From the sequence record PX418922.1: 64,000 bases of DNA; one strand, 5' to 3'. Shown in pieces: positions 3,574-49,838 of the stretch (within the stretch, counting starts at the first letter, position 1; each line of letters begins with the position of its first letter). The notes below the pieces were generated by a model. That model was not told the origin of the DNA. It searched no databases and saw nothing but the letters and a program-made list of their open reading frames with translations. Both the position numbers and the translations under genes were made by a program. This DNA is from a phage.

Positions 3574-3608
3574 TTGTATGGATATCAGATTAATAAGAGG
3601 AGCAACAG

Positions 3609-4954: not shown

Positions 4955-4967
4955 CAAAGGAGAAACT

Positions 4968-6112: not shown

Positions 6113-6119
6113 TTATGCA

Positions 6120-6488: not shown

Positions 6489-6490
6489 GA

Positions 6491-34193: not shown

Positions 34194-34224
34194 AAAAGGC
34201 ACCCACTTGGGTGCCTTTGTTTTA
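34194..34224. terminator. bidirectional terminator at convergence of plus and minus gene blocks
   Basis: AAAAGGCACCC-ACTT-GGGTGCCTTT with A-run upstream and T-run downstream. Confidence 0.65.
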
Positions 34225-34494
34225 TTCTTCGTTAGATTGCGTTTCAGACGCGTTAAATTCGGTTTCAGTACAACTTGCTAGGTAACTTATATTTTGCATC
34301 ACTACAACTACAGGTGTTTGAAGTTTATCTTCTAGCCCAGCAGCCACTTGAGCCAAAGCATTATCAATATTCGATTTCCTAACACCTGTTCCATGTCCTG
34401 TTGCCAAGTAAAGATTACCTTCCCCTTTTTGTGTAGCATTGGCAAAGTAGTAAACGTAATGTGCAAGGTAGTAATCACGGATTTCTTCAGTCAT
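34222..34494 (-). CDS. hypothetical protein (90 aa)
   Basis: Minus-strand ORF; RBS AGGAG upstream. Confidence 0.5.
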   Translation of the reverse strand: MTEEIRDYYLAHYVYYFANATQKGEGNLYLATGHGTGVRKSNIDNALAQVAAGLEDKLQTPVVVVMQNISYLASCTETEFNASETQSNEE

Positions 34495-34537: not shown

Positions 34538-35338
34538 TTATTTGTTTAAGTGGTCTTCGACCATTTTAATAAAACCTTCATTGCTGAAGGCTGTTGCAGC
34601 TTTTTCTCGGTAAACAAAAACTCCACGATCTTCATAGAGAAGTGTTTCTTCGTAATTAACTTCAGGGTTAACTACAACCATTTTTGTCCCGATGTTAAGA
34701 GCAGGAAAAAGCTCCCAGTTAAAATTGATAACTTGATTAGAGCAACCCACTACAATCACCATATCTTGAGCCGTCAAGCCGTCTAAGATGTGGTACATAT
34801 CGTTATACAATGGGGCAGTCTCCCCAAAGAACACTACATTAGGCTTCACATACTTGTAATCATCTACATCGATAGCAGCATAGCCAACATCTTTGATGAT
34901 TCTATTGTCTACGATCACTTCAGGCAGGAAGCCGTGAACATGTAGAACATCTTCATGAACAACACCCGCTTGTTCCAGAAGATCATCTACGTTTGTCGTG
35001 ATGTTGATAACACGATCACAGCCGTACTCTTGAAACCATTCCGCGATCTGGTAATGCGCAGCGTTAGGAGTTACACTATCCATCTCTACGCGACGTTTAT
35101 TGTAGAAGTCATGAGTTTTACGGTAGAGGTTGTATCCCTCTGCATCTAATCCGCCAACAGCCCCAGGAACACACTGTTCTTGTTGGTATCCAGCACGGAA
35201 GTTGAAAATGTCACACACTTCAGAAAGGTCGTATTCATCCCACAAAGCTTTCCCACTATCTGTATCAGTGCGGAAAGTACGTACACCGCTATCGGCGCTT
35301 AAGCCAGCGCCGCTGATCACTATTAATCGTCTTGGCAT
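34538..35338 (-). CDS. Sir2-family NAD-dependent protein (sirtuin-like)
   Basis: GAGLSADSGVRTFR NAD-binding motif, TTNVDDL, catalytic-type HVHG, VVFFGE; no CxxC zinc ribbon seen. Confidence 0.6.
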   Translation of the reverse strand: MPRRLIVISGAGLSADSGVRTFRTDTDSGKALWDEYDLSEVCDIFNFRAGYQQEQCVPGAVGGLDAEGYNLYRKTHDFYNKRRVEMDSVTPNAAHYQIAEWFQEYGCDRVINITTNVDDLLEQAGVVHEDVLHVHGFLPEVIVDNRIIKDVGYAAIDVDDYKYVKPNVVFFGETAPLYNDMYHILDGLTAQDMVIVVGCSNQVINFNWELFPALNIGTKMVVVNPEVNYEETLLYEDRGVFVYREKAATAFSNEGFIKMVEDHLNK

Positions 35339-35835
35339 TCTTCCTCCTCATAATCATCATAATCTTCATCATCCAAATCGTACACTTCGTCTTGAGAATA
35401 ACTCACTTCAAAGTAAATATCAAACTCTGCAAACAAACGTAGAATGTTGGACATGCTGTAATAGTTATCATAAGCTTCCTCTGCTTCATAGTAGAGGCGT
35501 AGCAAACGTTCAGCTTCTTCGTCTTCTACCCATTTATGATCAACATAAACAGAAGCGGCATAAATATTGTAGGCTTGTTCTCGACTATCAGCAAGATTTC
35601 GGCTTAACAGTTCAGGGAAGTCTTTACCATTTACATTTAGTCTTCCGCATAACCACAAAGCAATATCATGCCAATCTGCATCCTCTCCGCTGAAGCAGCT
35701 TGCGACTTCGCCAAACTTGGCATCCCCTAAGTCTCCGCTAATAGTGATCATGGTTGAACTATTGTAACCACAAGTTTCGCAATTTGAACAACTGTTGTGC
35801 ACATGAATTTCTACTTGAAACATATTTCCTCCCAT
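35323..35835 (-). CDS. hypothetical protein with acidic C-terminus (170 aa)
   Basis: Minus-strand ORF overlapping Sir2 start; C-terminal DLDDEDYDDYEEEE. Confidence 0.5.
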   Translation of the reverse strand: MGGNMFQVEIHVHNSCSNCETCGYNSSTMITISGDLGDAKFGEVASCFSGEDADWHDIALWLCGRLNVNGKDFPELLSRNLADSREQAYNIYAASVYVDHKWVEDEEAERLLRLYYEAEEAYDNYYSMSNILRLFAEFDIYFEVSYSQDEVYDLDDEDYDDYEEEECQDD

Positions 35836-35881
35836 AAAAGAAAAGCCCCCTGAAACAGGAGGCTTTGTTCAGATTCTGACA

Positions 35882-36532
35882 CTATACCAGACTTTGTAGG
35901 TATTTGTCAAGGGCTTCTTGATCACCTTGACAAACATAGCAACGGAAGTCTTGAGCCGAAGGTTGTTTATTCTCATCCCAGTCCCACATTATATTACCTT
36001 TGTAACGTGAACCAGGGAAGTCGAAAAATGCTGTATGGGTGATGTGGTGTGGACCGCCCCAAACCTCTGTAAAGGTGAACTGCGGATACGCTACCTTCAC
36101 CGCCTCCATAAACCAAGCTTTACGAATCAAAGCATTGTTGATAAAATGCGCGTGACGTTCCATTTCTTCCCAGTTCTTCCACACGCTTTTCTCGTCAAGG
36201 GAAAATACAAGATCCTCTTCAATATACAAGCCATCTTCGCATTCGTCAAAATCTGCCTCAAGACCTCCTACAGGTTCGTCGAGTCTAACACCATCAAAAG
36301 CAGAATATACCCACCAACCATCTTCCAGTAAGGCTTTGATAGGGACGAAGCCTTTATCAGCATATTGATCGAATTGTTTCACACGGTGGCTTGTGCAGTC
36401 TTCAAACTCACATTCTAAACGATATGCACCTTTTCGACGAGCCTCAAGACCGTGTGTACTGAAAATAACAACACTTCCTTCACCATCATTACGATCTACT
36501 TGATAAGCAACTACTGGTTTTGAATTTGACAT
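35882..36532 (-). CDS. hypothetical protein (216 aa)
   Basis: Minus-strand ORF. Confidence 0.5.
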   Translation of the reverse strand: MSNSKPVVAYQVDRNDGEGSVVIFSTHGLEARRKGAYRLECEFEDCTSHRVKQFDQYADKGFVPIKALLEDGWWVYSAFDGVRLDEPVGGLEADFDECEDGLYIEEDLVFSLDEKSVWKNWEEMERHAHFINNALIRKAWFMEAVKVAYPQFTFTEVWGGPHHITHTAFFDFPGSRYKGNIMWDWDENKQPSAQDFRCYVCQGDQEALDKYLQSLV

Positions 36533-37215
36533 TATTTCTCCTTATCTAGAAGATTGTTAGACAAAAACACGGCACGAGCAAAACCACGTGCGGTTAGGGA
36601 TCTAAGTTGTTTTGTTTTTGCACTAGCTCCACCTAAGCTTTTCCAACCCCAGAAGCAGCCTATATGATCTACTGGTTTCTTCACTGGTTGAACAAAACCA
36701 TTGCCGTGCCAAATACAAGTTTTCTTTGTATACCCATCACGGGTAGGCATTTTAGGATGAAAGCTTCCTTCCTCTTCAAACAAATACCCACCATATTCAT
36801 AAGGATTAAAGTAAAAATCGGGTTTACGCCATAAGGTTGAAAGTTTACCTACTGGGTTCTCAATCATCCAAGGAACATTATATTTGTTACCCAAAGCTTC
36901 CACTACACGAATATTAGCTAAAGCTTCATCTAATTCCTCTGTGCTACGTTCGTGTTTGCTACCACTACCTGCTAACATAGTACAAGGTGGAAATCCAAAA
37001 ATAATATCGGGTTTAGGTATCCCATGATCTTCAGGGTTGAATGTAGAATCTATCCAGGCATTCACATAGGTTATGTTTGGGTGCTCCATCCTAACCTCGT
37101 ATTTACCGTGATCCCCTTCATCAGCGTTTACACAAAAACACTTGTGACCTGCTTCGGCATAACGTAACACCATGATCCCAGATCCGTCAAACATAGACAA
37201 AACTGTTTTACTCAT
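36532..37215 (-). CDS. DNA (cytosine-5)-methyltransferase-like protein
   Basis: Motif I LSMFDGSG, motif IV FGFPPC, motif VI-like ENPVG; start ATG 37215 with RBS GGAGGGG; short for the family (227 aa). Confidence 0.5.
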   Translation of the reverse strand: MSKTVLSMFDGSGIMVLRYAEAGHKCFCVNADEGDHGKYEVRMEHPNITYVNAWIDSTFNPEDHGIPKPDIIFGFPPCTMLAGSGSKHERSTEELDEALANIRVVEALGNKYNVPWMIENPVGKLSTLWRKPDFYFNPYEYGGYLFEEEGSFHPKMPTRDGYTKKTCIWHGNGFVQPVKKPVDHIGCFWGWKSLGGASAKTKQLRSLTARGFARAVFLSNNLLDKEK

Positions 37216-37621
37216 TACCCCTCCATTCAAGACAAGCCATAACTTTACGCCAATCACTTTCTGTAAGAAAAATCTCGTTTGCTTTCTTCCACAAATCTAA
37301 ATCGTGAAGGGTTGGAATACGATATGTTAGTTCACAGAATCTATGCTCTTCTTCTGTAATATAACCAAAATGCAGAGCCACATCGTGAAACCAACACCAA
37401 CCATGCATCTCTCGAACAACATGGTCATGCTGAGACATTGTTTTATGCCGTAAACCTAACCAACAAGGAACAGATACTTTAGTAGTCTTTAATCTGTGAT
37501 CAACAGTATTAGAGTATTCAATAATAGCTGTCAGTTTCAATCGTGCTTTTTCTAAATCCTCATGGGTCACTTTGAAATAACTTTCTGAAAGATATCCACA
37601 CATATTAATAACCTCCTTCAA
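37208..37621 (-). CDS. hypothetical protein (137 aa)
   Basis: Minus-strand ORF with several His/Cys/Trp. Confidence 0.5.
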   Translation of the reverse strand: MKEVINMCGYLSESYFKVTHEDLEKARLKLTAIIEYSNTVDHRLKTTKVSVPCWLGLRHKTMSQHDHVVREMHGWCWFHDVALHFGYITEEEHRFCELTYRIPTLHDLDLWKKANEIFLTESDWRKVMACLEWRGNE

Positions 37622-38546
37622 AAGGCTTTACTACATGTTGATTAGCTTTAAAACGTTCAACATAGTCGTTTTCACCCATGTTTTCATATAGTTTAGTAAC
37701 AACATAAAAGTTTTCCCAAGCATATTCCCTAAACCAACCACTAGTGATGGAGGTGCAGACTTTTGATAAAGCCATTATAAAACTTTGCTTAGGGGTTGGA
37801 CCTCCGATCTCTTCACCGAAAGGAATTTGTGAACGTTCCAAAGCCAAAACACACGCTTCTTCATAAACACCTAACAGGCGCACATGTTTTGGTTGAGCAA
37901 AAAACTTTTCTTTGCTGGTCATAACTTCACTTCCATCTTTCATATAAGATTTATATGCTGGAGCATCCATTAACGCGATTGCTTCATGGATAGAATCATG
38001 ATCATAAACATACGGAACCTCGTCACCTTTAAAGAACTCTTTACTTTTTACGTTTAAGTTCGGATGAGAGTAAGTGTATGTTTCTTTCTCACGCAACTCA
38101 TAAATACTCTTAAGATTTTCTGGGATCTTTGCGCCCAGTGACCGCATGAAATGAATATCTTTCATAGTTTTAAAGAAGTGAGGACTATCCTTTTTAAAAC
38201 GATGACTCATTTTAAGAAGGTAGAGCACATCTAAAGGAGCAACAACATGTCCAGCGTAAGTTCGACGAACATCATCAGAATCTTCACAATAACTAATCAA
38301 AGCTTCTGTGCTATCTCCTTGAGAAGCAATATCGTATTCCAAATGTGCACCAGCTATCATTTTGACATGGCCTTTGTTCCCTTTACGTTCTACAAGTTCA
38401 ACAAACTCGTCTTGAGAGAACATTTTTGATAATTCTTCCCACTCTTGTTCTGTACACAGGTAATCTAAATCTACACAAGGGCGATACAAGTCTTTTCCCA
38501 TGTCCATAGCATGAATTTGTAATGCACGGCTACCAATTAACACCAT
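37605..38546 (-). CDS. hypothetical protein, possible nucleotidyltransferase-fold (313 aa)
   Basis: N-terminal IGSRAL...VDLDYL resembles GS..DxD NTase signature with longer spacing; RBS GAGGAG. Confidence 0.4.
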   Translation of the reverse strand: MVLIGSRALQIHAMDMGKDLYRPCVDLDYLCTEQEWEELSKMFSQDEFVELVERKGNKGHVKMIAGAHLEYDIASQGDSTEALISYCEDSDDVRRTYAGHVVAPLDVLYLLKMSHRFKKDSPHFFKTMKDIHFMRSLGAKIPENLKSIYELREKETYTYSHPNLNVKSKEFFKGDEVPYVYDHDSIHEAIALMDAPAYKSYMKDGSEVMTSKEKFFAQPKHVRLLGVYEEACVLALERSQIPFGEEIGGPTPKQSFIMALSKVCTSITSGWFREYAWENFYVVTKLYENMGENDYVERFKANQHVVKPFEGGY

Positions 38547-38576
38547 AATATTTCTCCTCTATTGGTTGATAGGTTA

Positions 38577-38605
38577 AGTTTATCAAGCTTCCAGATTCCT
38601 GTCAA
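38577..38605 (-). promoter_or_regulatory. sigma70-like promoter on minus strand
   Basis: Minus-strand TTGACA-N17-TAAACT immediately after terminator hairpin. Confidence 0.5.
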
Positions 38606-38627
38606 TAAAAAACCCGCCGAAGCGGGT
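38606..38627 (-). terminator. rho-independent terminator (CUUCGG hairpin), minus strand
   Basis: Minus-strand AACCCGC-TTCG-GCGGGTT followed by TTTTTT. Confidence 0.65.
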
Positions 38628-38636
38628 TATTATTTA

Positions 38637-38909
38637 CTAACACATTGAGGAAGAAGAGATCCAAACACCTCTTGTGGTTAAACCATTTTCATCCAACTCT
38701 ACACCATAATCTTCACAAATGAAATCAATATAGTGATCTGCGGCTGGCGTTCCTGTAGGGTAATAAGTTTCTCCGTTACCGTAGTCACCTATCCAAGCTT
38801 GTTCCTGAAACTGTTCACAAAGTTCTTCAATTTCCTTACGAAACTTTCCTTGTGCTTGTTCCATCTCTTTAACTTTCTTTTTTATCAGCAGTTCGCCTTC
38901 AGACTCCAC
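38637..38909 (-). CDS. small acidic protein with C-terminal W-x-SSS-x-C motif (paralogue 1)
   Basis: GTG start with RBS AAGGAGAG; C-terminus GVWISSSSMC. Confidence 0.5.
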   Translation of the reverse strand: MESEGELLIKKKVKEMEQAQGKFRKEIEELCEQFQEQAWIGDYGNGETYYPTGTPAADHYIDFICEDYGVELDENGLTTRGVWISSSSMC

Positions 38910-38918
38910 AATCTCTCC

Positions 38919-39137
38919 TTAACAGCTACTACTGTGCCAAACGCCTTGAGAATTAACAACGAAACCATCATCACCTTCACCATAACAAGAAGAGGATTGC
39001 CAATCTTCAAAACAGATTGCGTCATCTTCTAAACTAAGACCAAAACCAGCATCTTCAGCTTCTTTTGTAAGTTCGTCCACCAAAGCCATAATAGCTTGGG
39101 CTTTTTCAGTTAATTCTTCAACATTACGATAACTCAT
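38919..39137 (-). CDS. small acidic protein with C-terminal W-x-SSS-C motif (paralogue 2)
   Basis: ATG 39137 with RBS GAGGAG; shared VEEL..A..L..E block; C-terminus GVWHSSSC. Confidence 0.5.
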   Translation of the reverse strand: MSYRNVEELTEKAQAIMALVDELTKEAEDAGFGLSLEDDAICFEDWQSSSCYGEGDDGFVVNSQGVWHSSSC

Positions 39138-39451
39138 TAGTATTTCTCCTCTGGTTGGAAAACGGAACGACAAGCCCACATACTAGCTTCTTTTAAATGT
39201 TTAATAGCACAACGGATTTGATCAATACGTTCGTATGCAAGATCTAATTCTTTTTCTGTGCCGTCAAAAGACCCATGATATGCTTCACAATACTCTTCCT
39301 CTAAAGCTTTGAAGATTAAACCTAAACGCTCTTCTGCATCTTTAATAGCGTTAACCTTGCCAATCTTATCGTCAGTATGCGCCTTATAACCTTTGATATC
39401 TTCGATTCCCACTTTACCTCCTATTAACAACTTAAAGAAGATGGATGCCAA
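39137..39451 (-). CDS. hypothetical protein (104 aa)
   Basis: Minus-strand ORF overlapping neighbours by 1 nt. Confidence 0.5.
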   Translation of the reverse strand: MASIFFKLLIGGKVGIEDIKGYKAHTDDKIGKVNAIKDAEERLGLIFKALEEEYCEAYHGSFDGTEKELDLAYERIDQIRCAIKHLKEASMWACRSVFQPEEKY

Positions 39452-39621
39452 TTTGTTCCAGTATTCTCATTTTCATCTTCTGGATCATAATAGCCACCCA
39501 TCCCATATTCAGGGGAGAAACGGAAACCTTTACCAGTCTCATCTGCTAACTGCTCTGCTTCCGCTAAAGCCTCATAAGCTGCTTTTACGGCTTCTTCTAC
39601 TGTTTTAAACTTGGTCGTCAT
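39424..39621 (-). CDS. small acidic protein with C-terminal W-x-SS-x-SC motif (paralogue 3)
   Basis: RBS AGGAGAGGAG; VEEAVKAAYEALAEAE block; C-terminus NWHPSSLSC. Confidence 0.5.
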   Translation of the reverse strand: MTTKFKTVEEAVKAAYEALAEAEQLADETGKGFRFSPEYGMGGYYDPEDENENTGTNWHPSSLSC

Positions 39622-39895
39622 AAAATTTCTCCTCTCCTAAAGACATGTTGACATGAAATGCACGATATGTAAATTCGTTGTCCGTTGTGTTTGAATAAAA
39701 CTCAAATTGAACAACACCGTCTTGAGAAGACAGATACATGCCAATTTGAACTGTTCCTTCTGGTACCAGGTAAGCATACTCTGGACGTAGTGTTACATTG
39801 TAAAAATAAAGTTCCCCAACACCCATTTCATCCCAAGCTTCCCAAGCGGTAACGAAGTTACTTTCAAAACTTGTTACTGATCTGAACTCTGCCAT
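39605..39895 (-). CDS. hypothetical protein (96 aa)
   Basis: Minus-strand ORF. Confidence 0.5.
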   Translation of the reverse strand: MAEFRSVTSFESNFVTAWEAWDEMGVGELYFYNVTLRPEYAYLVPEGTVQIGMYLSSQDGVVQFEFYSNTTDNEFTYRAFHVNMSLGEEKFYDDQV

Positions 39896-40386
39896 AAAAC
39901 CTCCTCAATCTTGTAGTTTGACTCCATCTCCAATACATTTCCACGAACGTCTCTCCGAAGAAAGGCATAAGCTTTATTAGGTATTGTAGACTCATATTTA
40001 ACCATATCTGGCACAGCAAAAGATACTACTACTCCTGCTGGGCTTCTGTCAAGAGCCTTATTAATATTTCTAAGGATATCGTTAGCCAAGATTTCTGCCA
40101 ATTCTCCAAGAACGGTTTCGGTTATATCTTTATATCCCATTAAGTATTTGTTGATATCTTTCATCTCTGTATTGTTCAGAGTATAATCCAAAGGATAGAA
40201 ATTCAAAGCGGAGTCACTTTTATGTGTCCACATGAAATGCACCCGATCCGAGCAGAATCGTAACCCTCTTTGAAGAATATCTTCTACAACAGGCAGAATT
40301 TCTTTTGTCACATCATTAACCATGTTGTAATCTAAGATTTCTGCCAAGTTTGTTCTTTGTTCACCACGTTTACGTTTAGGAATCAC
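39874..40386 (-). CDS. hypothetical protein (170 aa)
   Basis: Minus-strand ORF. Confidence 0.5.
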   Translation of the reverse strand: MIPKRKRGEQRTNLAEILDYNMVNDVTKEILPVVEDILQRGLRFCSDRVHFMWTHKSDSALNFYPLDYTLNNTEMKDINKYLMGYKDITETVLGELAEILANDILRNINKALDRSPAGVVVSFAVPDMVKYESTIPNKAYAFLRRDVRGNVLEMESNYKIEEVLWQSSDQ

Positions 40387-40957
40387 TTGTTATTGCCCTC
40401 ATTACCAAAGGTCGTAGAAAATCGTAAATCTCTTGTTTTGTTTTCCCACGAATGTTTAAACAAGGAACATTATTGGCTTTAGCTATCTTCCAAGCCGTAG
40501 CTGTTCCACCTTTTGCATCTCCATGTTTATCAGTATTAGCACAAGCCAACAAGAAACATGATGGAGCAGGATTCTCCAAATCTCTACCTAACACTTGATG
40601 CACATTACGTTGGTGCAATTTTCTAGCACCCTGCTTAAGCTTTTCATAGGCTGGGTGAACATCTTTGATCCATTGCACAGAGATAGCATAGTTCATTGTA
40701 TCTGGTTTTGCAAGAACAATAACATCCCCTGGAATCTGATTACCTTTGAAATTTTCCCAAGGAACATAAATCTCCTTGTTAGTAGGATTTTCAGACTCTT
40801 GGACACCTGTTTCAAAAGCAGAATCACTACCCTCTGCCTTCCCAGACCTTAATTTAAACCCAAGGTTTGAAAGCCATTTCCCTATGCCTACCATCAAAGC
40901 CCACTCTTCTTCGGATATGTCTCTACTTCCAACTCCCGTATAGAACAGTTCTGCCAT
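40376..40957 (-). CDS. DprA/Smf-like (SLOG-type Rossmann) protein
   Basis: TGVGSR...SGKAEGSDSAFETGV and ..RNVHQVLG.. resemble the DprA Rossmann core; ATG 40957 with RBS GAGGTGA. Confidence 0.4.
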   Translation of the reverse strand: MAELFYTGVGSRDISEEEWALMVGIGKWLSNLGFKLRSGKAEGSDSAFETGVQESENPTNKEIYVPWENFKGNQIPGDVIVLAKPDTMNYAISVQWIKDVHPAYEKLKQGARKLHQRNVHQVLGRDLENPAPSCFLLACANTDKHGDAKGGTATAWKIAKANNVPCLNIRGKTKQEIYDFLRPLVMRAITSDS

Positions 40958-40964: not shown

Positions 40965-41273
40965 TCAACAAGTAATTTCAAAAGGTGTATACGGTTCCGT
41001 ATTTCTCATGATCCAAGGACTGCTAGGATTGCTCGGATCATAAGGACCAAAAGGTTTTATGGTCGGTTGTGTTTCTTTCTTCTGAATCTCTTCAAAAATA
41101 CGACGAAGTTCAGAATATTCTTGATCCACCATAAGATTCGGTGCATCTGATTCTACAGCTTGCAGGTTATCTTCCTTAAGAACAATCTCACGAACAAGAT
41201 TAACATCTTCTGTTTCTAAGATAACTTCTTTACGGATATTACCTACACTTTGAATAATTGTAATCTTATACAT
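40965..41273 (-). CDS. hypothetical protein (102 aa)
   Basis: Minus-strand ORF. Confidence 0.5.
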   Translation of the reverse strand: MYKITIIQSVGNIRKEVILETEDVNLVREIVLKEDNLQAVESDAPNLMVDQEYSELRRIFEEIQKKETQPTIKPFGPYDPSNPSSPWIMRNTEPYTPFEITC

Positions 41274-42016
41274 TAATCCTCCTCAAGAGTTGAATAAAAT
41301 TGAAGACCACCGTCCATATCGAAATAAGCAAATGTTAAGTTATTATTGAACACAGATCCAGTATCCATATAAACACGATTCGCATTGATAATAGGTGTTT
41401 TTACATAAGAGTGTCCATGAAACACATAATCCACACCCATCACAACAGGAAGTTTCATTCCCTCTTTAGCACAGTCTACCATATCTCTGTCCCACATAAG
41501 TGCTTCAGCAAAACGGTTTTCCTGTGTTTTTGTCATCTTCGAAATGTATTCTGGAATATCTGTTACAGGGAGATATTCCAAAGAAGATGGATACCCACCA
41601 TGAATAAACGCAAGTTTCATGCCTCTGTAGTTAACAATGAGAACAACAGGTAAATCTTCTGTCATCATTGTTAAGGCTGTAGCTCCTTCTTCACCACATT
41701 CTTCAAAGACCGTATATCCTCCATTTTGATACCAACACTCGTAGTAGCTACGATCTCCTTCCAGCATACCTTTAATCATCATGTCTTCATGATTGCCACG
41801 AATAGCGTAGCGATTGTGTTTACGAGTAAATTCTAAAACACAACGAAAGTTTTGCTTTCCACGGTCAGTAAGATCTCCTAGAGATACAACCACATCTGTA
41901 TCTCGGATACCTAACTTTGCCTTTCCTTTTTCATACAAATTATAACAACCGTGTAGATCTCCAATTATAAAAAGATCTTGATCGCTTTTAACAGTAATTT
42001 CTCTGTGTATGATCAC
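41273..42016 (-). CDS. Ser/Thr protein phosphatase (calcineurin-like metallophosphatase)
   Basis: GDLHG, GDLTDRG, GNHE metallophosphatase motifs. Confidence 0.8.
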   Translation of the reverse strand: MIIHREITVKSDQDLFIIGDLHGCYNLYEKGKAKLGIRDTDVVVSLGDLTDRGKQNFRCVLEFTRKHNRYAIRGNHEDMMIKGMLEGDRSYYECWYQNGGYTVFEECGEEGATALTMMTEDLPVVLIVNYRGMKLAFIHGGYPSSLEYLPVTDIPEYISKMTKTQENRFAEALMWDRDMVDCAKEGMKLPVVMGVDYVFHGHSYVKTPIINANRVYMDTGSVFNNNLTFAYFDMDGGLQFYSTLEED

Positions 42017-42352: not shown

Positions 42353-42925
42353 TCAAATTATTAACGAAACCGCATGACTAAATCTTGGTTCAGATATAAC
42401 CTCTGCTACAGTCACATATGTATCGTGCAGCCAAAAAGATTCTACTCTACAAACACAAATACCGTTGATAATGAAATCTACACAGGCTTTATTATTTTCG
42501 CACACTTGTTGACTATAAACAACCCCTAAAGAGTCATAAAGTGATCTCACTGTTGCTACCATTTCATCTGTTTCGTCTTCCTGTGAAACAAAGAAAACGA
42601 ATACAGACAAGTTATTAGCGAAAGTATTGCTATTCTCTACTTCAACCGACTTACAAGGTAAAAAGGAGTAATATTTACCGTTAGGTATCAATTTCGCCTC
42701 AACCTGGTTAAGTATGCTTTGAGATGGTTTTGTTACATAAAAAAGATTTTCTGTTGGGTTTTCAACATTGCTCCTTACTATGCAACGAGTGGGGTTCGAA
42801 GGATCAAAAACATGATCGAAATCGACACACACAGGTAAGTTAACAACTTTAAACTTTTTGCTAAGAATGCTTACTGCTGTAAAAATCAAACCAGCATTTA
42901 TTTTGCCAGTGAAAGTTGAACGCAT
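42353..42925 (-). CDS. hypothetical protein (190 aa)
   Basis: ATG 42925 with RBS GAGGAG; in-frame upstream ATG at 42943 also possible. Confidence 0.5.
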   Translation of the reverse strand: MRSTFTGKINAGLIFTAVSILSKKFKVVNLPVCVDFDHVFDPSNPTRCIVRSNVENPTENLFYVTKPSQSILNQVEAKLIPNGKYYSFLPCKSVEVENSNTFANNLSVFVFFVSQEDETDEMVATVRSLYDSLGVVYSQQVCENNKACVDFIINGICVCRVESFWLHDTYVTVAEVISEPRFSHAVSLII

Positions 42926-42939
42926 AACTACTCCTCGGA

Positions 42940-43134
42940 TCATTCTACCAAAGAGAATTCCGCCTCTTCCAGGTAGATTACAGACCTTGTTGCATGATAT
43001 TTAACGCTCCAGAAATTACCTTCGCGCCGTAAAAGTATCTCATTCACATCAAGATTGCTTAGAAAAACCATATAACTTAAAGCTTGTTGACGCGTTGAGA
43101 ATTGTTTCTCTAAAAGTTCTTCTCCGCTCTGCAT
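42940..43134 (-). CDS. hypothetical protein (64 aa)
   Basis: Minus-strand ORF. Confidence 0.45.
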   Translation of the reverse strand: MQSGEELLEKQFSTRQQALSYMVFLSNLDVNEILLRREGNFWSVKYHATRSVIYLEEAEFSLVE

Positions 43135-43632: not shown

Positions 43633-44142
43633 TTAAACAAAATAAAATGGTTGAGAGAGGCCCAAACGATTCTTTGGGTCGTATACATACCAAGCGTATG
43701 CTGTCTTATCTGTTCCACCTGCAACAAACGAAGGCCGTTCTGAAAGGACTATAAGGTTTGTTGGTGGATTCTTTTGATGGAACTCTCGTCGTTTCTTTGA
43801 CTCCAAGAAGCCCAACCGAAGAAGATAAATACAAACATCCGCCTCTTTTAAGCTCTTTTCCAAGAACTCCATTGCCAACTTAAATGGAGGATTTGTGATT
43901 ATAATGTCGGGACGATTTTCCCATTCATGACTAAAATAATCTTTACCTTCTTCAAGTTCGCAATATTCTGAACCTTCAGGAAAATGGCGATAAATCGCTT
44001 CAGCTTCACCTCTGCAAGGTTCTGCAAAAACCCAACCTTCTTCCTTTAGATTTTTGAAATCTATAACACTAAACAAACTATTGATTGCTTTTTGCGGTGT
44101 CGGATAATAATCGCTCGTTGGGCGATCATAATCTAATGCCAT
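43633..44142 (-). CDS. DNA N6-adenine methyltransferase (small phage Dam-like)
   Basis: Catalytic DIIITNPPF (NPPF) motif and N-terminal YYPTPQKAINSL. Confidence 0.7.
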   Translation of the reverse strand: MALDYDRPTSDYYPTPQKAINSLFSVIDFKNLKEEGWVFAEPCRGEAEAIYRHFPEGSEYCELEEGKDYFSHEWENRPDIIITNPPFKLAMEFLEKSLKEADVCIYLLRLGFLESKKRREFHQKNPPTNLIVLSERPSFVAGGTDKTAYAWYVYDPKNRLGLSQPFYFV

Positions 44143-44605: not shown

Positions 44606-45298
44606 TTAAATAGCGGTTCCTTCGAAATCCGCCACATTTACGAGATTAATATTTTCAGATTTAGAAGTCAAGTTGTTTTCTGCAACAGATTTTTCTTCAG
44701 TATCCGCCTCGTTACCTGCCACGTTACGAGGTTCTTCTTCACCGTAGGGATTACCGAATTTCAAAAGATTGATCAATTCTTCTTTGGAGAAGTTTTCTAA
44801 ATCATCGTCTGTTAATTCAATAATCTCGTCTTGTTCTTCAATAAATGTTTCACCACCAGAAAAAGCATCTCGCTTTTTAGCTACTTCCATAGCCTGTTCT
44901 GGTGTTGCCCCTGCATCAAGAGCAGCTAAAGCAAAGTCTGACCCACTTCCTACCGCATAATATTCTTCATCAATCGGATATGCACGTGTTGGGTTGTTAC
45001 CTTCGTGCAGGAAAATACGTCCGTCTGGATGAACAACAAGTGCAATAAACTCTTCATCTTCTTTATCTGGATCAGAGTGAATCATCAAACCAGGGACAGC
45101 ATCACGTGCTGCTTCGCACTGTAGATTTTGTTCAAACCATTGAAAGAAAGAAAGCACGGAGGTCAGACGACCAGCACCACCTACAAGGTAATCTCCAATT
45201 TTTCGGACCTTTTTGAAATTAATAGAATCTACACGTCCACCAAAAGTTACCTTACCATCACTCAAAATCTTATTTTTGGTTGCAATAATTGTCGTCAC
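44606..45298 (-). CDS. HslV-like Ntn-hydrolase peptidase with acidic C-terminal extension
   Basis: N-terminal MTTIIATKN (Thr nucleophile after Met), GG..D motif, YAVGSGSDFALAALDAG resemble HslV/ClpQ; ~50-aa acidic tail. Confidence 0.7.
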   Translation of the reverse strand: MTTIIATKNKILSDGKVTFGGRVDSINFKKVRKIGDYLVGGAGRLTSVLSFFQWFEQNLQCEAARDAVPGLMIHSDPDKEDEEFIALVVHPDGRIFLHEGNNPTRAYPIDEEYYAVGSGSDFALAALDAGATPEQAMEVAKKRDAFSGGETFIEEQDEIIELTDDDLENFSKEELINLLKFGNPYGEEEPRNVAGNEADTEEKSVAENNLTSKSENINLVNVADFEGTAI

Positions 45299-47292: not shown

Positions 47293-47553
47293 TTACTCCG
47301 CAATTTGAGCCATGAGATCACGCAGTTCGGTAAAACCGCCTACGTATGTTACCTCCCCGTTCACTTCAGACAGAATTTGTGGAAATGTGCGTGGAGGAAC
47401 TCCGGTAAGATCAACAACTGTTTTAGTCATTGATTCTAAATCATAGTCTTGATCAAGACTTAAATATTCAAACTGTTTATTGCGCATGGTTAATAGTTGT
47501 TTTGACATTTCACAAAATTGACAGTTAGGTTTACCAAAAATTACAAATTCCAT
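47293..47553 (-). CDS. glutaredoxin/NrdH-like redoxin
   Basis: CQFC active-site motif in GKPNCQFCE context, thioredoxin-fold size (86 aa); RBS AAGGAG. Confidence 0.75.
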   Translation of the reverse strand: MEFVIFGKPNCQFCEMSKQLLTMRNKQFEYLSLDQDYDLESMTKTVVDLTGVPPRTFPQILSEVNGEVTYVGGFTELRDLMAQIAE

Positions 47554-48395
47554 TACCTCTCCTTATTAAGTAATACTGCTAAAGACTGTTCAATACCTTT
47601 ATTTAAATCTGATTTTGTAAGATAGTGACTGGTTACTAGTTGTGACTTCACCGGACGTGCTGCTGGAGCATTATAGGTTGAAGCTGATACCGCCGATATC
47701 TTAACAGGTTCTGGCATCTGTGTCAAGATCTTTTCCGCAAACTCCGCCCAAGAAATAAGATGGCTTCCTGCAAAATGGTAAGTCTTAACAGACCTTGACC
47801 AACCTGTTTTTAATACTTCAAAAATAGCTTCTGCTAAATCTGGAGCATATGTTGGACAAGAGAACTGATCAGCAACAATAATAAAATCACGTTGTCCATC
47901 ATTATAGCGAGACAACATGGTTTTTAGAAAGTTATTTCCAAATTCGCTATATACCGAGGCTGTTCGAATAATATATGCATTTGGGTTAACTCCTCGCACC
48001 ATTTTTTCACCAAGTTCTTTCGTATACCCATAATTGTTTATTGGGTTAGGTGTAGTATCTTCAAAAATAGGATGAGAATAATTAAAAATATAGTCTGTAG
48101 AAATATGCACAAAATCAATTTTAAGTTTGCTGCACACTGCCGCAATATTTGCAGGTCCATACGCATTAACAGCCAAAGCAGTAGCAAAATCATGTTCTGC
48201 TTTATCTACAGCCGTATAAGCGGCGCAATTAATAACACCATCTACATAATCTTCAATAATAGCGTTTCGCACAGCTTCAAAATTTGTAATATCTACACGT
48301 TCTTTAGGATAAATTAAAGATACATTTGAAGGAGCCACTTTACGTAAAGCTTGTCCCAGTTGTCCATTACCGCCCAATACCAGATATGTTAGCAT
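47553..48395 (-). CDS. rmlD: dTDP-4-dehydrorhamnose reductase
   Basis: N-terminal LVLGGNGQLGQAL Rossmann motif and overall RmlD-like sequence; last gene of rmlBACD block. Confidence 0.8.
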   Translation of the reverse strand: MLTYLVLGGNGQLGQALRKVAPSNVSLIYPKERVDITNFEAVRNAIIEDYVDGVINCAAYTAVDKAEHDFATALAVNAYGPANIAAVCSKLKIDFVHISTDYIFNYSHPIFEDTTPNPINNYGYTKELGEKMVRGVNPNAYIIRTASVYSEFGNNFLKTMLSRYNDGQRDFIIVADQFSCPTYAPDLAEAIFEVLKTGWSRSVKTYHFAGSHLISWAEFAEKILTQMPEPVKISAVSASTYNAPAARPVKSQLVTSHYLTKSDLNKGIEQSLAVLLNKER

Positions 48396-48955
48396 ACACC
48401 CTCGCTACGTAACTGTTGAAAAGATTTAGCCATTGCATCTTTTGTTGATAGGATAGGTTTAAAACCTTCGTCAAAAATCATATCGAAGCCCCAATCGATC
48501 CCTATATCAGGATCATCCCAACGTAAACTTTGTTCACTAGAAGGGTCGTATGGAGTTGTGCATTTGTATTCAAAGATAGCATCCATACTCAAAACTATAA
48601 AACCATGAGCCAAACCAGGCGGAAGCCAAAACTGCGTATGGTGTCGTGCACGAAGAACAACACCGTCCCAAGCACCGTAAGTTGGACTATCTTTACGTAA
48701 ATCTACAGCGAAATCCAATACTTCCCCACTTACACAACGAACTAGCTTACCTTGCGGGTTATTTGTTTGAAAGTGCATTCCTCGCAAAACACCGAAGTTT
48801 GATTTAGACATGTTATCTTGAACGAAAGTTTGTCTACCAATAATATCTTCGTATTTTTGTTCATTATATGTTTCTAGAAAGAAACCACGATCATCTTTAT
48901 AAACGTCTGGTTTGATAATTACCGCACCTTCAATTTTTGTTTTTTCTACTTTCAT
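48389..48955 (-). CDS. rmlC: dTDP-4-dehydrorhamnose 3,5-epimerase
   Basis: RmlC-like DDRGFF..E and RGMHFQ motifs; ATG 48955 with RBS GGAGAG overlapping rmlA stop (ATGA). Confidence 0.8.
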
Positions 48956-49830
48956 TTTCTCTCCGCTAATTTGAGTAGGTATTGCCCGTACTCTGTTTTC
49001 TTCAGTGAGTTTCCATGATACACCAAAGTCTCTAAAGAAATCCACCCTTTTTTGAAAGCAATTTCTTCCAGGCACGCAATCTTCAATCCTTGACGGTTCT
49101 CAATAGTCTGCACGAATTGACCAGCTTCCATCAGACTGGCGTGTGTTCCTGTGTCAAGCCAAGTAAATCCTCGTCCGAGAACTTCCACTTGTAACTTCCT
49201 GTCTTCTAGGTAGCTGCGATTGATATCAGTGATCTCCAGTTCTCCACGCGCGGAAGGGGTTACTTCTAATGCACGTTGAATAACAGAGTTATCATAGAAA
49301 TACAAACCTGTGACAGCATAATCTGATTTAGGATTTTCAGGTTTCTCTTCAATAGAAATAGCTTGACGATTACTCCCAAATTCAACCACACCGAATCGTT
49401 CAGGATCTTTCACCAAATACCCGAAGATACAAGCTCCACCCCAAACATCTACCATCTCACTAGCGTTAATCAGTAGTTTACCAAAGCTTTGTCCGAAGAA
49501 TAGGTTGTCACCTAAAATAAGAGCAACAGAGTCTTCTCCGATAAAATCTTTACCGATGATGAAAGCGTCAGCAAGACCTCGTGGCTCGGATTGGATTGCG
49601 TAAGTGAGTTTTATCCCAAACATAGATCCATCTCCGAGAAGATACTCAAAGTCTTCCTGATCGCCTGGTGTGGTGATGATTAAGATATCCTTAATATCAG
49701 CCAACATCAATACCGATAAAGGGTAGTAGATCATGGGTTTGTCATACACAGGGAGCAATTGCTTGCTCACACTGCGTGTTACCGGATGAAGGCGGGTTCC
49801 ACTTCCTCCCGCCAAAATAATACCTTTCAT
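48952..49830 (-). CDS. rmlA: glucose-1-phosphate thymidylyltransferase
   Basis: N-terminal [18 protein letters not shown] nucleotidyltransferase motif; RmlA-like throughout. Confidence 0.85.
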
Positions 49831-49838
49831 AACCCTCC

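What the first reader, a model, noticed from the sequence alone, without database searches (positions are those of the whole stretch)
34538..40957. Accessory island: Sir2-like protein, C5 methyltransferase-like protein, NTase-like protein and DprA/SLOG-like protein with unknown small genes
Within 6.5 kb on the minus strand lie a Sir2-family protein with intact NAD-binding and catalytic His motifs but no zinc ribbon, a short C5-cytosine methyltransferase-like protein, a 313-aa protein with a GS...DxD nucleotidyltransferase-like N-terminus, three W-SS-C paralogues, and a DprA/SLOG-type Rossmann protein. SIR2 and SLOG domains are the modules of bacterial NAD-depleting defence effectors (Thoeris ThsA), and a NADAR-like protein is encoded at 5143-5685. 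One hypothesis is a phage counter-defence module acting on NAD or ADP-ribose signalling; another is simple DNA/NAD metabolism. Domain calls other than Sir2 are low confidence.
Basis: inference. Interest (0 to 1): 0.6.

Follow-up and report, generated by a model that had tools for sequence, protein, structure and literature searches.

The report
Coliphage accessory block with Acb2 sponge

Summary
All 13 minus-strand genes are real and 92-98% identical to those of more than 60 Phapecoctavirus genomes. Profile or fold searches support the Sir2, nucleotidyltransferase (NTase), DprA/SLOG, W-SS-C-paralogue and NADAR calls. The C5-methyltransferase call has only weak support.

- **Missed gene.** The one gene with an established function is 39137-39412, a 91-aa homologue of T4 Vs.4/Acb2 (PDB 7UQ2, E 3e-28). 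Acb2 is a cyclic-oligonucleotide sponge that blocks CBASS, not an NAD-directed protein.
- **Sir2 and SLOG are not a split ThsA.** They lie 5 kb apart and occur in different phage groups. The Sir2 is CobB-like and belongs to the rV5/T5 phage sirtuin clade, which has been predicted to act in RNA repair. The SLOG protein is DprA-like. In other phages its homologues sit beside NARP1-like and Macro genes, so a link to ADP-ribose remains plausible.
- **New result.** The three W-SS-C genes and the MenT-like NTase (DUF7277+DUF7275) form a conserved, phage-restricted module. In 80 viral loci, 73 carry 1-5 such genes, 204 in all, every one upstream of the NTase on the same strand. acb2 is inserted into this array. 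I found no paper that describes the module, and its function is unknown.

The parts
34222..34494 (-). 90-aa protein of unknown function, the last gene of the leftward block. A bidirectional terminator-like hairpin lies at 34195-34218.
   Evidence: phrog_15991 5.8e-53. 100% identical in phAPEC8. Hairpin.
34538..35338 (-). Sir2-family protein of 266 aa, belonging to the phage clade shared with rV5 and T5-like phages. GAGxS, Asn116 and His135-Gly136 are intact, there is no Zn ribbon, and TQNxD reads TTNVD.
   Evidence: Pfam PF02146 5.6e-20 and phrog_2162 1e-101. CobB 1S5P 1.4e-15. Alignment with rV5, T5-like and Vibrio phage homologues. 979 phage records.
35323..35835 (-). 170-aa protein of unknown function with an N-terminal CxxCxxC and a very acidic C-terminus. 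It diverges rapidly: 77% and 63% identity to close relatives.
   Evidence: phrog_9509. No Pfam, NCBIfam, PADLOC or PDB hit. Identities.
35882..36532 (-). 216-aa protein of unknown function. It is conserved together with Sir2 and the methyltransferase-like gene in related lineages.
   Evidence: phrog_8514. Present downstream of the NTase in 8 of 80 viral loci, always in the order NTase, methyltransferase-like, p216, Sir2. No PDB hit.
36532..37215 (-). Compact (227 aa) C5-cytosine-methyltransferase-like protein. Motifs I (FDGSG), IV (FPPCT) and VI (ENP) are present, but no recognisable target-recognition domain.
   Evidence: phrog_757 4e-85. Weak M.HaeIII and PADLOC MTase_II hits over the N-terminal half. 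838 homologue clusters, all about 215-245 aa, some named 'DNA cytosine methyltransferase' by NCBI, and 1 of 120 with PF00145. Invariant motifs. Profile against PDB negative.
37208..37603 (-). 131-aa protein of unknown function.
   Evidence: phrog_16551. No other hits.
37605..38546 (-). MenT/AbiEii-like pol-beta nucleotidyltransferase (DUF7277) with a helical C-terminal domain (DUF7275). It is the enzyme partner of the W-SS-C array.
38577..38628 (-). Terminator-like hairpin (38628-38611) followed by a sigma-70-like promoter (38605-38577), between W-SS-C gene 1 and the NTase.
   Evidence: phAPEC8 carries an annotated terminator at the same place. These are consensus matches only.
38637..38909 (-). 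W-SS-C paralogue 1, 90 aa, tail GVWISSSSMC.
   Evidence: phrog_899 2e-13. tblastn finds 397 phage records. Module statistics.
38919..39137 (-). W-SS-C paralogue 2, 72 aa, with an internal DWQSSSC and a terminal VWHSSSC. Its start codon overlaps the acb2 stop codon by 1 nt.
   Evidence: phrog_899..
39137..39412 (-). acb2/vs.4 homologue, 91 aa, with a GTG start 4 nt after AGGAGG. Predicted cyclic-oligonucleotide sponge (anti-CBASS), inserted into the W-SS-C array.
   Evidence: Pfam Acb2_Tad1_hairpin 2e-16, above the gathering score. T4 Vs.4 PDB 7UQ2 3e-28. The N- and C-terminal segments are 82-91% identical to Vs.4 and phAPEC8 Acb2, the middle third 30-36%. Start codon. The gene is absent from the otherwise collinear array in L015.
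39424..39621 (-). W-SS-C paralogue 3, 65 aa, with YGMGGYYDP and the tail NWHPSSLSC.
   Evidence: phrog_899 1e-12..
39605..39895 (-). 96-aa protein of unknown function.
   Evidence: phrog_4991. 44% homologue in Justusliebigvirus BME3.
39874..40386 (-). 170-aa protein of unknown function. Its LWQSSDQ tail looked like a decayed W-SS-C tail, but alignment did not support that.
   Evidence: phrog_8569. No PDB hit. Alignment test negative.
40376..40957 (-). Single-domain DprA-type SLOG protein, 193 aa. Invariant motifs are GxGSR, RSGxAxGxD, HxRNxxQ and GGTxT.
   Evidence: phrog_768 2e-62. Pfam PF02481 reaches only 12.8 bits against a cut-off of 29.6. Alignment of 50 homologues. AF2 pLDDT 96. Foldseek order: DprA, ShosA, Moco carrier protein, ThsA SLOG, LOG. 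1443 phage records. Neighbours are NARP1-like or Macro genes in 14 of 80 viral loci.

Best explanation
The stretch is the promoter-distal end of the long leftward early/middle gene block of a Phapecoctavirus (phAPEC8-like) coliphage. It ends at the convergent terminator near 34.2 kb. It is not one system but a patchwork of at least four accessory units with separate evolutionary histories.

1. acb2/vs.4 (39137-39412). By homology this makes a small oligomeric sponge that soaks up CBASS second messengers such as 3'3'-cGAMP, so the host effector is never triggered.
2. Three W-SS-C genes plus the MenT-like nucleotidyltransferase (NTase). This is a conserved, phage-restricted two-part module, and acb2 has been inserted into its array. 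My inference is that the NTase acts on or with the invariant C-terminal tail of the small acidic proteins, most simply by nucleotidylating a tail serine, and that the module serves host takeover or counter-defence.
3. A block running from a compact C5-methyltransferase-like protein through p216 and p170 to Sir2. The Sir2 belongs to the ribbon-less rV5/T5 phage sirtuin clade. It is predicted to cleave NAD+ and transfer ADP-ribose to an unknown acceptor.
4. A DprA-type SLOG protein. It is predicted to bind or process a nucleotide, possibly an ADP-ribose derivative.

What is shown: homology, folds, catalytic motifs, synteny statistics and phyletic patterns. What is inferred: every biochemical activity.
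For: - Identity of the phage and block. GC skew flips at about 34 kb, and a bidirectional hairpin lies at 34195-34218.
- Mosaic structure: the sister genus Justusliebigvirus (BME3) keeps Sir2, p170, p216, p137, p96, p170b and SLOG. It shows no tblastn match to the compact methyltransferase-like gene, the NTase, the three W-SS-C genes or acb2, although BME3 has a larger annotated C5-methyltransferase.
- Allele mixing: within the genus, flanking genes are 97-100% identical, while acb2 is 65-67% identical and Sir2 71% identical between isolates.
- Independent distributions: Sir2 979, SLOG 1443, NTase 735 and W-SS-C 397 phage records, in different host groups.
- Acb2. The cGAMP pocket is formed by the conserved N- and C-terminal segments (PMC10419184).
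- NTase plus W-SS-C module: 73 of 80 NTase-seeded viral loci have 1-5 ORFs ending W.{0,3}SS.{0,4}C. That gives 204 ORFs, all upstream on the NTase strand, with none downstream or on the opposite strand. All 26 W-SS-C-seeded loci have the NTase 0.1-2 kb downstream.
- The module holds across Escherichia, Pseudomonas, Shewanella, Aeromonas, Acinetobacter and Stenotrophomonas phages.
- Background control: in 930 kb of SLOG-seeded phage DNA there are 16 regex hits, all in 6 loci of NTase-bearing lineages.
- The catalytic residues of the NTase are invariant.
Against: - No activity was measured.
- 7 of 80 NTase loci lack a recognisable W-SS-C gene, and in Stenotrophomonas phage BUCT608 the W-SS-C genes lie downstream.
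- A terminator-like and a promoter-like element separate W-SS-C gene 1 from the NTase, so they may not be co-transcribed.
- The sampled loci are phylogenetically related. The counts overstate the number of independent events, and long-lived synteny in T4-like genomes could preserve linkage without any functional coupling.
- The order NTase, methyltransferase-like, p216, Sir2 recurs in 8-9 of 80 loci, so units 2 and 3 may be less independent than stated.
- The acb2 middle third is only 30-36% identical to characterised relatives, so its ligand range could differ.
Confidence: 0.65

Rival explanations
1. One reading: the block is one counter-defence module against NAD or ADP-ribose signalling. 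Sir2 and SLOG would work together as a phage-side mirror of ThsA, helped by the distant NADAR protein.
For: - Both folds are present.
- The phage genome also has NADAR and Macro genes.
- SLOG homologues neighbour NARP1-like or Macro genes in 14 of 80 viral loci.
- Iyer et al. 2022 predicted that viral SLOG, Macro and NADAR domains counter soluble ADP-ribose derivatives and tend to co-occur.
Against: - Sir2 and SLOG are unfused, 5 kb apart, and separated by genes that the sister genus lacks.
- Their phyletic patterns differ. Only 7 of 80 SLOG loci have Sir2 within 6 kb, and all 7 are from this lineage.
- Sir2 is CobB-like and hits no ThsA or DSR model.
- SLOG is closer to DprA than to the ThsA SLOG domain.
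- NADAR is 29 kb away on the other strand, and Macro is about 90 kb away in phAPEC8.
- The one gene here with an established counter-defence function targets CBASS.
Confidence: 0.12
2. An RNA/tRNA-repair toolkit. Sir2 would remove 2'-phosphates from cleaved RNA in the manner of KptA/Tpt1. The MenT-like NTase would rebuild or edit tRNA 3' ends. The adjacent calcineurin-like phosphoesterase (41273-42016) would trim phosphate ends. Together they would counter host anticodon nucleases or tRNA-directed toxins.
For: - Iyer et al. 2022 assign the rV5/SP15-type phage sirtuin clade to RNA repair, from its linkage to RnlA, cREC, MazG and calcineurin-like genes.
- The window's Sir2 is 50% identical to rV5 Sir2 and 54% to a T5-like one.
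- In rV5, Sir2 sits between MazG and RnlA.
- The closest folds to the NTase are tRNA-acceptor-stem-modifying MenT toxins.
- In Shewanella phage Thanatos-2 the NTase abuts two tRNA genes.
- A metallophosphatase lies beside SLOG.
Against: - phAPEC8 has no detectable RnlA homologue. Its cREC-like and MazG-like genes are about 30 kb from Sir2.
- There are no tRNA genes in the window.
- This reading does not explain the strictly conserved W-SS-C array.
- The published assignment is itself only a computational prediction.
Confidence: 0.15
3. Ordinary phage DNA and nucleotide housekeeping. The DprA-like protein would load a recombinase on ssDNA, the methyltransferase-like protein would modify phage DNA against restriction, and Sir2 would deacylate proteins. 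The small genes would be unrelated early genes with no joint function.
For: - The block is continuous with the replication and nucleotide-metabolism genes (ligase, exonucleases, RNR, thymidylate synthase).
- SLOG homologues often sit next to PhoH, RNR, glutaredoxin, DHFR or thymidylate synthase.
- The best SLOG fold match is DprA bound to ssDNA.
- NCBI names relatives of the methyltransferase-like protein 'DNA cytosine methyltransferase'.
Against: - The SLOG protein lacks the SAM and winged-helix domains of DprA and fails the Pfam DprA cut-off.
- The methyltransferase-like protein has no recognisable target-recognition domain.
- Sir2 lacks the Zn-ribbon module found in canonical deacylases such as CobB.
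- acb2 is not housekeeping.
- The statistics for the NTase plus W-SS-C module argue against chance neighbours.
Confidence: 0.12
4. The NTase plus W-SS-C module is a toxin-antitoxin-like or superinfection-exclusion unit. The MenT-like NTase would be a translation-blocking toxin, held in check by the small acidic proteins encoded upstream, as MenA1 restrains MenT1.
For: - The fold match to MenT1, MenT3 and MenT4.
- The small partner genes always lie upstream on the same strand, as is typical for antitoxins.
- MenA1 is a small protein that binds MenT1 asymmetrically (PMC10435456, abstract listed).
Against: - One to five paralogous 'antitoxins' per locus is unusual.
- The module occurs in strictly lytic phages and is almost absent from bacterial genomes.
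- An invariant C-terminal Cys and Ser-Ser point to chemistry on the tail rather than simple binding.
Confidence: 0.1

Closest known systems
Acb2 / T4 Vs.4 (anti-CBASS 2; PDB 7UQ2; Pfam PF24729 Acb2_Tad1_hairpin)
   Same: About 66% identity to T4-type Vs.4 over the whole 89-91 aa. Same length. The N- and C-terminal segments, which form the cGAMP pocket, are nearly identical.
   Different: The middle third is only 30-36% identical. The gene sits inside a W-SS-C array rather than in the T4 vs.3-vs.5 context. Ligand range and activity are untested.
MenT / AbiEii (DUF1814) nucleotidyltransferase toxins (MenT1 8AN4, MenT3/TglT 6J7N, MenT4 6Y56)
   Different: No sequence-level membership: it hits Pfam DUF7277/DUF7275, not DUF1814. 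It has an extra helical domain of about 140 aa. It is phage-restricted. Its partners form an array of 1-5 acidic proteins with an invariant W-x-S-S-x-x-C C-terminus. Substrate unknown.
ThsA (type I Thoeris effector, SIR2-SLOG)
   Same: Both domain superfamilies occur in the region.
   Different: The two domains are in separate genes 5 kb apart, with independent distributions. The Sir2 is CobB-like, the SLOG DprA-like, and there is no PADLOC ThsA hit.
CobB / SIRT5 class III sirtuins, and the rV5/T5 phage sirtuin clade of Iyer et al. 2022
   Same: GAGxS NAD loop, catalytic Asn and His-Gly. These are the best sequence hits. The protein is 50-54% identical to the rV5 and T5-like phage proteins.
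   Different: There is no Zn ribbon, and Gln of TQNxD is replaced by Thr in all six phage sequences aligned. The rV5-type neighbours RnlA, cREC and MazG are not adjacent here.
DprA / ShosA / YpsA-like SLOG proteins
   Same: Rossmannoid SLOG fold with GSR, SGxAxGxD and GGT motifs.
   Different: It is a single 193-aa domain with no SAM or winged-helix domain. It has an extra invariant HxRNxxQ motif and falls below the Pfam DprA cut-off. In other phages it is linked to NARP1-like or Macro genes.
Type II C5 DNA cytosine methyltransferases (e.g. M.HaeIII 1DCT)
   Same: Motif I FxGxG, motif IV P-C and motif VI E-N-x are invariant.
   Different: It is 227 aa rather than about 310-370. There is no recognisable target-recognition domain or motifs IX-X, no PF00145 hit, and the family profile finds no PDB relative.

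Membership tests
Acb2 / Vs.4 anti-CBASS sponge | Sequence homology to characterised members (T4 Vs.4, PF24729) above curated thresholds | tested here: met
   PF24729 60.4 bits against a cut-off of 27. 7UQ2 E 3e-28 over residues 3-89.
Acb2 / Vs.4 anti-CBASS sponge | Small size (about 90 aa) with conserved N- and C-terminal segments that build the cyclic-dinucleotide pocket | tested here: met
   91 aa. N-terminal 33 residues 85-91% identical and C-terminal 22 residues 82-86% identical to Vs.4 and phAPEC8 Acb2. Pocket description from PMC10419184.
Acb2 / Vs.4 anti-CBASS sponge | Homo-hexamer that binds 3'3'-cGAMP or cyclic trinucleotides and rescues phage from CBASS | not testable with these tools
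   Needs binding and plaque assays.
Sirtuin (PF02146), deacylase type | Pfam SIR2 above the gathering score, with the GAGxS loop and catalytic Asn and His | tested here: met
   72.5 bits against 24. GAGLS, N116, H135-G136.
Sirtuin (PF02146), deacylase type | Four-Cys Zn-ribbon small domain and Gln of the TQNxD motif | tested here: not met
   No Cys falls in the region aligned to the CobB ribbon. The motif reads TTNVD in all six phage homologues. All NCBIfam deacylase models score far below their cut-offs.
ThsA (Thoeris SIR2-SLOG effector) | SIR2 and SLOG fused in one polypeptide | tested here: not met
   They are separate genes at 34538-35338 and 40376-40957 with 11 genes between them.
ThsA (Thoeris SIR2-SLOG effector) | Match to defence-system SIR2 or ThsA profiles | tested here: not met
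   The only PADLOC hit is PDC-S65 at E 3e-4. SLOG has no hit.
DprA (DNA processing protein A) | Rossmann/SLOG core with GSR, SGxAxGxD and GGT motifs | tested here: met
   Invariant columns. H. pylori DprA is the top Foldseek hit, E 1.7e-5, TM about 0.5.
DprA (DNA processing protein A) | PF02481 above the gathering score, with flanking SAM and winged-helix domains | tested here: not met
   12.8 bits against 29.6. The AF2 model shows a single 193-aa domain.
C5 DNA cytosine methyltransferase | Catalytic motifs I, IV (Pro-Cys) and VI (Glu-Asn-x) | tested here: met
   D10-G11-S12-G13, F75-P76-x-C78-T79 and E119-N120-P121 are invariant in 25 homologues.
C5 DNA cytosine methyltransferase | PF00145 match, target-recognition domain and motifs IX-X | tested here: not met
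   No Pfam hit. PADLOC models match only the N-terminal 110-126 residues. Profile against PDB is empty at E 0.1.
Pol-beta nucleotidyltransferase, MenT/AbiEii-like | NTase fold with G-S, D-x-D and a third acidic residue | tested here: met
Pol-beta nucleotidyltransferase, MenT/AbiEii-like | Sequence membership in DUF1814, toxin activity on tRNA, and a cognate antitoxin | tested here: inconclusive
   No DUF1814 hit: the protein falls in DUF7277/DUF7275. Upstream small partner genes exist. Toxicity and substrate cannot be tested here.
Phage MNT-like cyclic-dinucleotide-synthesising NTases (Ho et al., 10.1101/2022.06.09.495361) | Motif GS-x-AY[GAN]T-x4-SDxD | tested here: not met
   The protein reads IGSRALQIHAMDMGKDLYRPCVDLDY, with 19 residues between GS and DxD and no AYGT.
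Other known signal sponges (Sequestin PF21825, Tad2 PF11195, Acb4 PF13876, Tad1) | Pfam match of any small ORF in the block | tested here: not met
   The Pfam scans of the block's ORFs return only PF24729, for the acb2 homologue. The W-SS-C family is unrelated to Acb2 by hhalign, probability 0.3%.
NARP1 (Adps + Namat NAD reconstitution) | PRPP-synthetase-like and Nampt-like gene pair | tested here: not met
   No tblastn hit in the window or in the whole phAPEC8 genome.

The most novel reading that the evidence does not exclude
The W-SS-C array plus the DUF7277/DUF7275 nucleotidyltransferase (NTase) is a new, phage-exclusive two-component system. In this reading, a MenT-like NTase covalently modifies the invariant C-terminal G-G-W-x-S-S-S-x-x-C tail of one to five small acidic proteins. 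The modification could be nucleotidylation of a tail serine, or a RiPP-like dehydration and Ser-Cys cross-link. The layout of precursor genes lying directly upstream of an enzyme gene would fit the second option. The modified proteins would be the active agents in host takeover or counter-defence. The module is present in about 700 sequenced phages, including the model phage RB69 (ORF134c with ORFs 136c-138c), so it could be tested at once.
Probability: 0.3. Interest if true: 0.8.

Novelty: new member of a known kind. Interest (0 to 1): 0.55.

Why it matters
- **Annotation.** Among the phage records I inspected, the acb2 homologue is labelled 'hypothetical protein' or left uncalled. Yet it predicts that these therapy-relevant coliphages resist CBASS. 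Its alleles differ sharply between near-identical isolates, which could explain host-range differences.
- **Interpretation.** The ThsA analogy is tempting but does not survive testing. That is a useful warning about reading function from domain co-occurrence in phage accessory regions.
- **A new lead.** The NTase plus W-SS-C pairing is one of the cleanest conserved gene neighbourhoods I could find here, and no paper in the library describes it. It occurs in genetically tractable phages such as RB69, so a mass-spectrometry experiment could show whether phages post-translationally modify small proteins through a MenT-like enzyme.
- **A candidate extra NARP1 component.** The repeated adjacency of this SLOG family to NARP1-like and Macro genes suggests it may take part in phage NAD/ADP-ribose counter-defence.

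Tried and rejected
- **W-SS-C proteins as Acb2/Tad1 relatives:** hhalign probability 0.3%.
- **p170b (tail LWQSSDQ) as a decayed W-SS-C member:** the alignment with '...WCSSSMxC' proteins is poor, and the BME3 orthologue lacks the tail.
- **The NTase as one of the phage MNT-like cyclic-dinucleotide synthases of Ho et al.:** the motif does not fit.
- **Link to NARP3 (PnuC plus NadR):** not related.
- **The methyltransferase-like protein or NTase in 5-hydroxycytosine/arabinosyl DNA modification, as in RB69:** that pathway uses a thymidylate-synthase homologue and a different NTase.
- **PDB sequence searches for SLOG, the NTase, p216, p170, p170b and the W-SS-C and methyltransferase-like family profiles:** nothing significant.
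- **NCBIfam and PADLOC:** nothing beyond sub-threshold CobB models and weak methyltransferase models.
- **Rfam over 33.8-42.5 kb:** no family. No tRNAs in the window.
- **Bacterial homes for the NTase:** only 5 loci, all metagenome-assembled genomes, in 185,579 species genomes. Four of them carry W-SS-C genes upstream, so they are probably phage DNA.
- **Literature searches for DUF7275, DUF7277, PF23940 and RB69 ORF names:** no relevant papers.
- **RnlA in phAPEC8, to support the RNA-repair reading:** absent.
- **NARP1 in phAPEC8:** absent.

Full report
**What the window is.** The query stretch 34538-40981 matches 135 phage records by megablast. In 63 of them at least 80% is covered at 92-98% identity, and all are phAPEC8-like Escherichia myoviruses of the genus Phapecoctavirus, subfamily Stephanstirmvirinae. 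GC skew changes sign near 34 kb. A bidirectional terminator-like hairpin lies at 34195-34218. In phAPEC8 the equivalent genes (gp185-gp198) form the end of a long leftward block that starts with ligase, exonucleases, DNA polymerase subunits, thymidylate synthase, RNR, an Rml sugar pathway, lysozyme and PhoH. Many small early genes converge on it from the other side. The 'island' is therefore the promoter-distal tail of the early/middle replication and metabolism block, not a mobile insert.

- Sir2 (34538-35338) passes Pfam SIR2. It is closest to E. coli CobB and to SIRT5. It keeps GAGLS, Asn116 and His135-Gly136. No cysteine aligns to the CobB Zn ribbon, and it reads TTNVD where sirtuins have TQNxD. 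Homologues from rV5, a T5-like phage, a Vibrio phage and two relatives share all these features.
- The SLOG call is also sound. An AF2 model with pLDDT 96 matches H. pylori DprA best, then ShosA, the Moco carrier protein, the ThsA SLOG domain and LOG enzymes, at TM about 0.5. Pfam DprA stays below its cut-off.
- The methyltransferase call is the weakest. There is no Pfam hit, M.HaeIII scores E 0.093, and PADLOC methyltransferase models score 1e-4 to 4e-3 over the N-terminal half only. A family profile finds nothing in the PDB. Even so, motifs I, IV (Pro-Cys) and VI (Glu-Asn-Pro) are invariant in a large family of uniformly short (215-245 aa) proteins.
- The three W-SS-C proteins all hit phrog_899.
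- NADAR at 5143-5685 is confirmed.

The ORF at 39137-39451 hits Pfam Acb2_Tad1_hairpin above its cut-off and T4 Vs.4 (PDB 7UQ2) at E 3e-28. The real start is a GTG at 39412, 4 nt after AGGAGG, which gives 91 aa. Vs.4/Acb2 is the phage sponge that sequesters CBASS cyclic oligonucleotides. Its ligand pocket is built from the conserved N- and C-terminal segments of neighbouring protomers (PMC10419184). Those segments are 82-91% identical between the window protein, phAPEC8 Acb2 and a T4-type Vs.4. The middle third is only 30-36% identical. The window allele is 98% identical to that of phage Ro121lw but only 67% to phAPEC8's, although the flanking genes are 97-100% identical. This looks like an allele swap, of the kind often seen in genes under arms-race pressure.

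**Mosaic structure.**
- The sister genus Justusliebigvirus (BME3) keeps Sir2, p170, p216, p137, p96, p170b, SLOG and the flanking phosphatase. It shows no tblastn match to the compact methyltransferase-like gene, the NTase, all three W-SS-C genes or acb2, although BME3 has a larger annotated C5-methyltransferase.
- The NTase and W-SS-C genes recur in Mosigvirus (ST0, RB69), in the e/nudE region.
- vs.4 recurs in hundreds of T4-like phages at about 70% nucleotide identity.
- Sir2 homologues occur in 979 phage records (T5-like, rV5-like, KVP40-like), SLOG in 1443 (Pseudomonas, Klebsiella, Aeromonas, N4-like and others), the NTase in 735 and W-SS-C gene 1 in 397.

The components therefore have separate histories.

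**The NTase plus W-SS-C module.** A simple test, stop-to-stop ORFs of at least 35 aa that end in W.{0,3}SS.{0,4}C, gave the following results.

- It finds only the three known genes in the 64-kb window.
- It finds 1-4 genes on the NTase strand within 3 kb of every NTase homologue I fetched. These came from Escherichia, Pseudomonas, Shewanella, Aeromonas, Acinetobacter and Stenotrophomonas phages.
- It finds none in five loci without the NTase.
- In 80 IMG/VR loci seeded with the NTase alignment (41-77% identity), 73 have at least one such ORF. That is 204 ORFs in all, every one upstream of the NTase on the same strand, with none downstream or on the other strand.
- In the reverse test, all 26 loci seeded with the tail pattern have the NTase 0.1-2 kb downstream.
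- As a control, 930 kb of phage DNA seeded with SLOG gave 16 hits. All were in 6 loci that belong to NTase-bearing lineages.
- phAPEC8's whole genome gave the three genes plus one spurious 39-aa ORF.

The family comprises 206 unique sequences with a median length of 81 aa and a median pI of 4.4. Its tail consensus is G-G-W-(V/I)-S-S-S-x-x-C at the C-terminus. The Cys is terminal by construction of the pattern. Trp sits at -7 in 72% of sequences and Ser at -4 and -3 in about 80%. There is also a mid-protein YGxGGxYxP motif. A three-sequence profile finds 103 cluster representatives among 1.8 billion proteins, and almost all of them match up to their last residue. The NTase is essentially phage-restricted: 5 loci, all in metagenome-assembled genomes, among 185,579 species genomes, and 4 of those carry W-SS-C genes upstream. 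An IMG/VR relative (L015) has the three W-SS-C genes contiguous without acb2, so acb2 is an insertion into the array. No paper in the library mentions DUF7275, DUF7277 or the RB69 ORFs.

I infer a functional unit. The invariant catalytic residues, together with an invariant Ser-Ser and a C-terminal Cys, suggest chemistry on the tail. An antitoxin-like or regulator role is also possible. Caveats: 7 of 80 loci lack W-SS-C genes, the order is reversed in one phage, a terminator/promoter-like pair separates W-SS-C gene 1 from the NTase, and the sampled loci are not phylogenetically independent.

**Sir2 and SLOG.** The ThsA analogy fails the tests available here. The genes are unfused and 5 kb apart. 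Their distributions differ. There is no PADLOC ThsA, DSR or SIR2-HerA hit. The sequence is CobB-like. The SLOG domain is DprA-like.

Iyer et al. 2022 (PMC9503650) place the rV5/SP15-type phage sirtuins in a clade they predict to act like KptA in RNA repair. The window's Sir2 is 50% identical to rV5's. In rV5, Sir2 sits between MazG and RnlA. phAPEC8, however, has no RnlA, and its cREC-like and MazG-like genes are distant. The activity of Sir2 therefore remains open. Loss of the Zn-ribbon module argues against a classical protein deacylase.

For SLOG, context in other phages is informative. Of 80 SLOG-seeded viral loci, 11 carry a PRPP-synthetase-like plus Nampt-like (NARP1-like) pair and 12 carry a Macro gene within 6 kb. 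These usually lie immediately upstream, once downstream, and in at least five different arrangements. Other loci show PhoH, RNR, glutaredoxin or metallophosphatase neighbours instead. The same paper predicted that viral SLOG domains process cADPR-like signals and associate with Macro and NADAR. phAPEC8 itself has Macro, NADAR and Sir2 genes scattered around the genome, but no NARP1.

**Verdict.** The region is a typical phage accessory mosaic. Its one assignable function is a known anti-CBASS sponge. The most interesting content is the conserved, uncharacterised NTase plus W-SS-C module, together with the SLOG-NARP1/Macro linkage. No biochemical activity has been measured for any gene here.

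Noticed in passing
window 5143-5685 (+): A NADAR-domain protein (Pfam 2e-35) lies among the rightward early genes. It is 98% identical to phAPEC8 gp010. It is 29 kb from the block and on the other strand.
   Followed up: partly
window 62923-63648 (-): A MazG-like (PRA-PH family) nucleotide pyrophosphohydrolase, 30% identical to the rV5 MazG that sits beside Sir2. It is a candidate Atd1-like anti-TIR gene: the AntiDefenseFinder paper reports Atd1 in Phapecoctavirus.
   Followed up: partly
window 47553-50831 (-): A complete RmlA-D set for dTDP-L-rhamnose synthesis, with strong Pfam hits. phAPEC8 also has four glycosyltransferase genes at 109.6-112.8 kb. The sugar acceptor (DNA, virion or host surface) is not obvious.
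   Followed up: no
window 39137-39412 compared with L001:10594-10863 and L006:6103-6375: There are two very different acb2 alleles among near-identical phages. They are 67% identical overall and 30% in the middle third, while neighbouring genes are 97-100% identical. Sir2 shows a similar pattern: 99% to phAPEC8 but 71% to Ro121lw.
   Followed up: partly
window 41273-42016 (-) and 40965-41273 (-): A NinI-like calcineurin-type metallophosphatase and a 102-aa unknown gene lie immediately upstream of SLOG. Metallophosphatase-SLOG adjacency recurs in BME3 (L005), in L133, and in 11 of 80 SLOG-seeded viral loci.
   Followed up: partly
L131:935-4567; L173, L181, L183, L184, L193, L194, L195, L197, L202 (about 2000-6550); L176:6001-9102: SLOG homologues lie directly next to NARP1-like gene pairs (PRPP-synthetase-like plus Nampt-like). 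In most of these loci a Macro gene lies between the pair and SLOG. The SLOG protein could be an accessory part of phage NAD reconstitution or ADP-ribose clean-up.
   Followed up: partly
window 37605-38546 (-), residues 264-271: The invariant NTase loop C-T-S-I-T-S-G-W reads like the W-SS-C tail (W-x-S-S-S-x-x-C) in reverse. This may be chance, or it may hint at antiparallel pairing or a Cys-Cys contact between the enzyme and the tail.
   Followed up: no
L010:3001-4801 (Shewanella phage Thanatos-2) and L012:2992-4497 (Acinetobacter phage AM101): In Thanatos-2 the NTase is followed by two tRNA genes and then a DprA-like SLOG gene. In AM101 it is followed closely by a putative ADP-ribosyltransferase.
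   Followed up: no
window 57524-58132 (-) and 44606-45298 (-): An NT5C-like 5'-deoxynucleotidase, comparable in activity to the T5 Dmp that counters Kongming defence, and an HslV/proteasome-like peptidase.
   Followed up: no
window 42353-42943 (-) and 43633-44142 (-): RefSeq/PHROG labels on the homologues of these genes, 'histidyl tRNA synthetase' (196 aa) and 'DNA methyltransferase' (169 aa), have no Pfam support here and look unreliable.
   Followed up: partly
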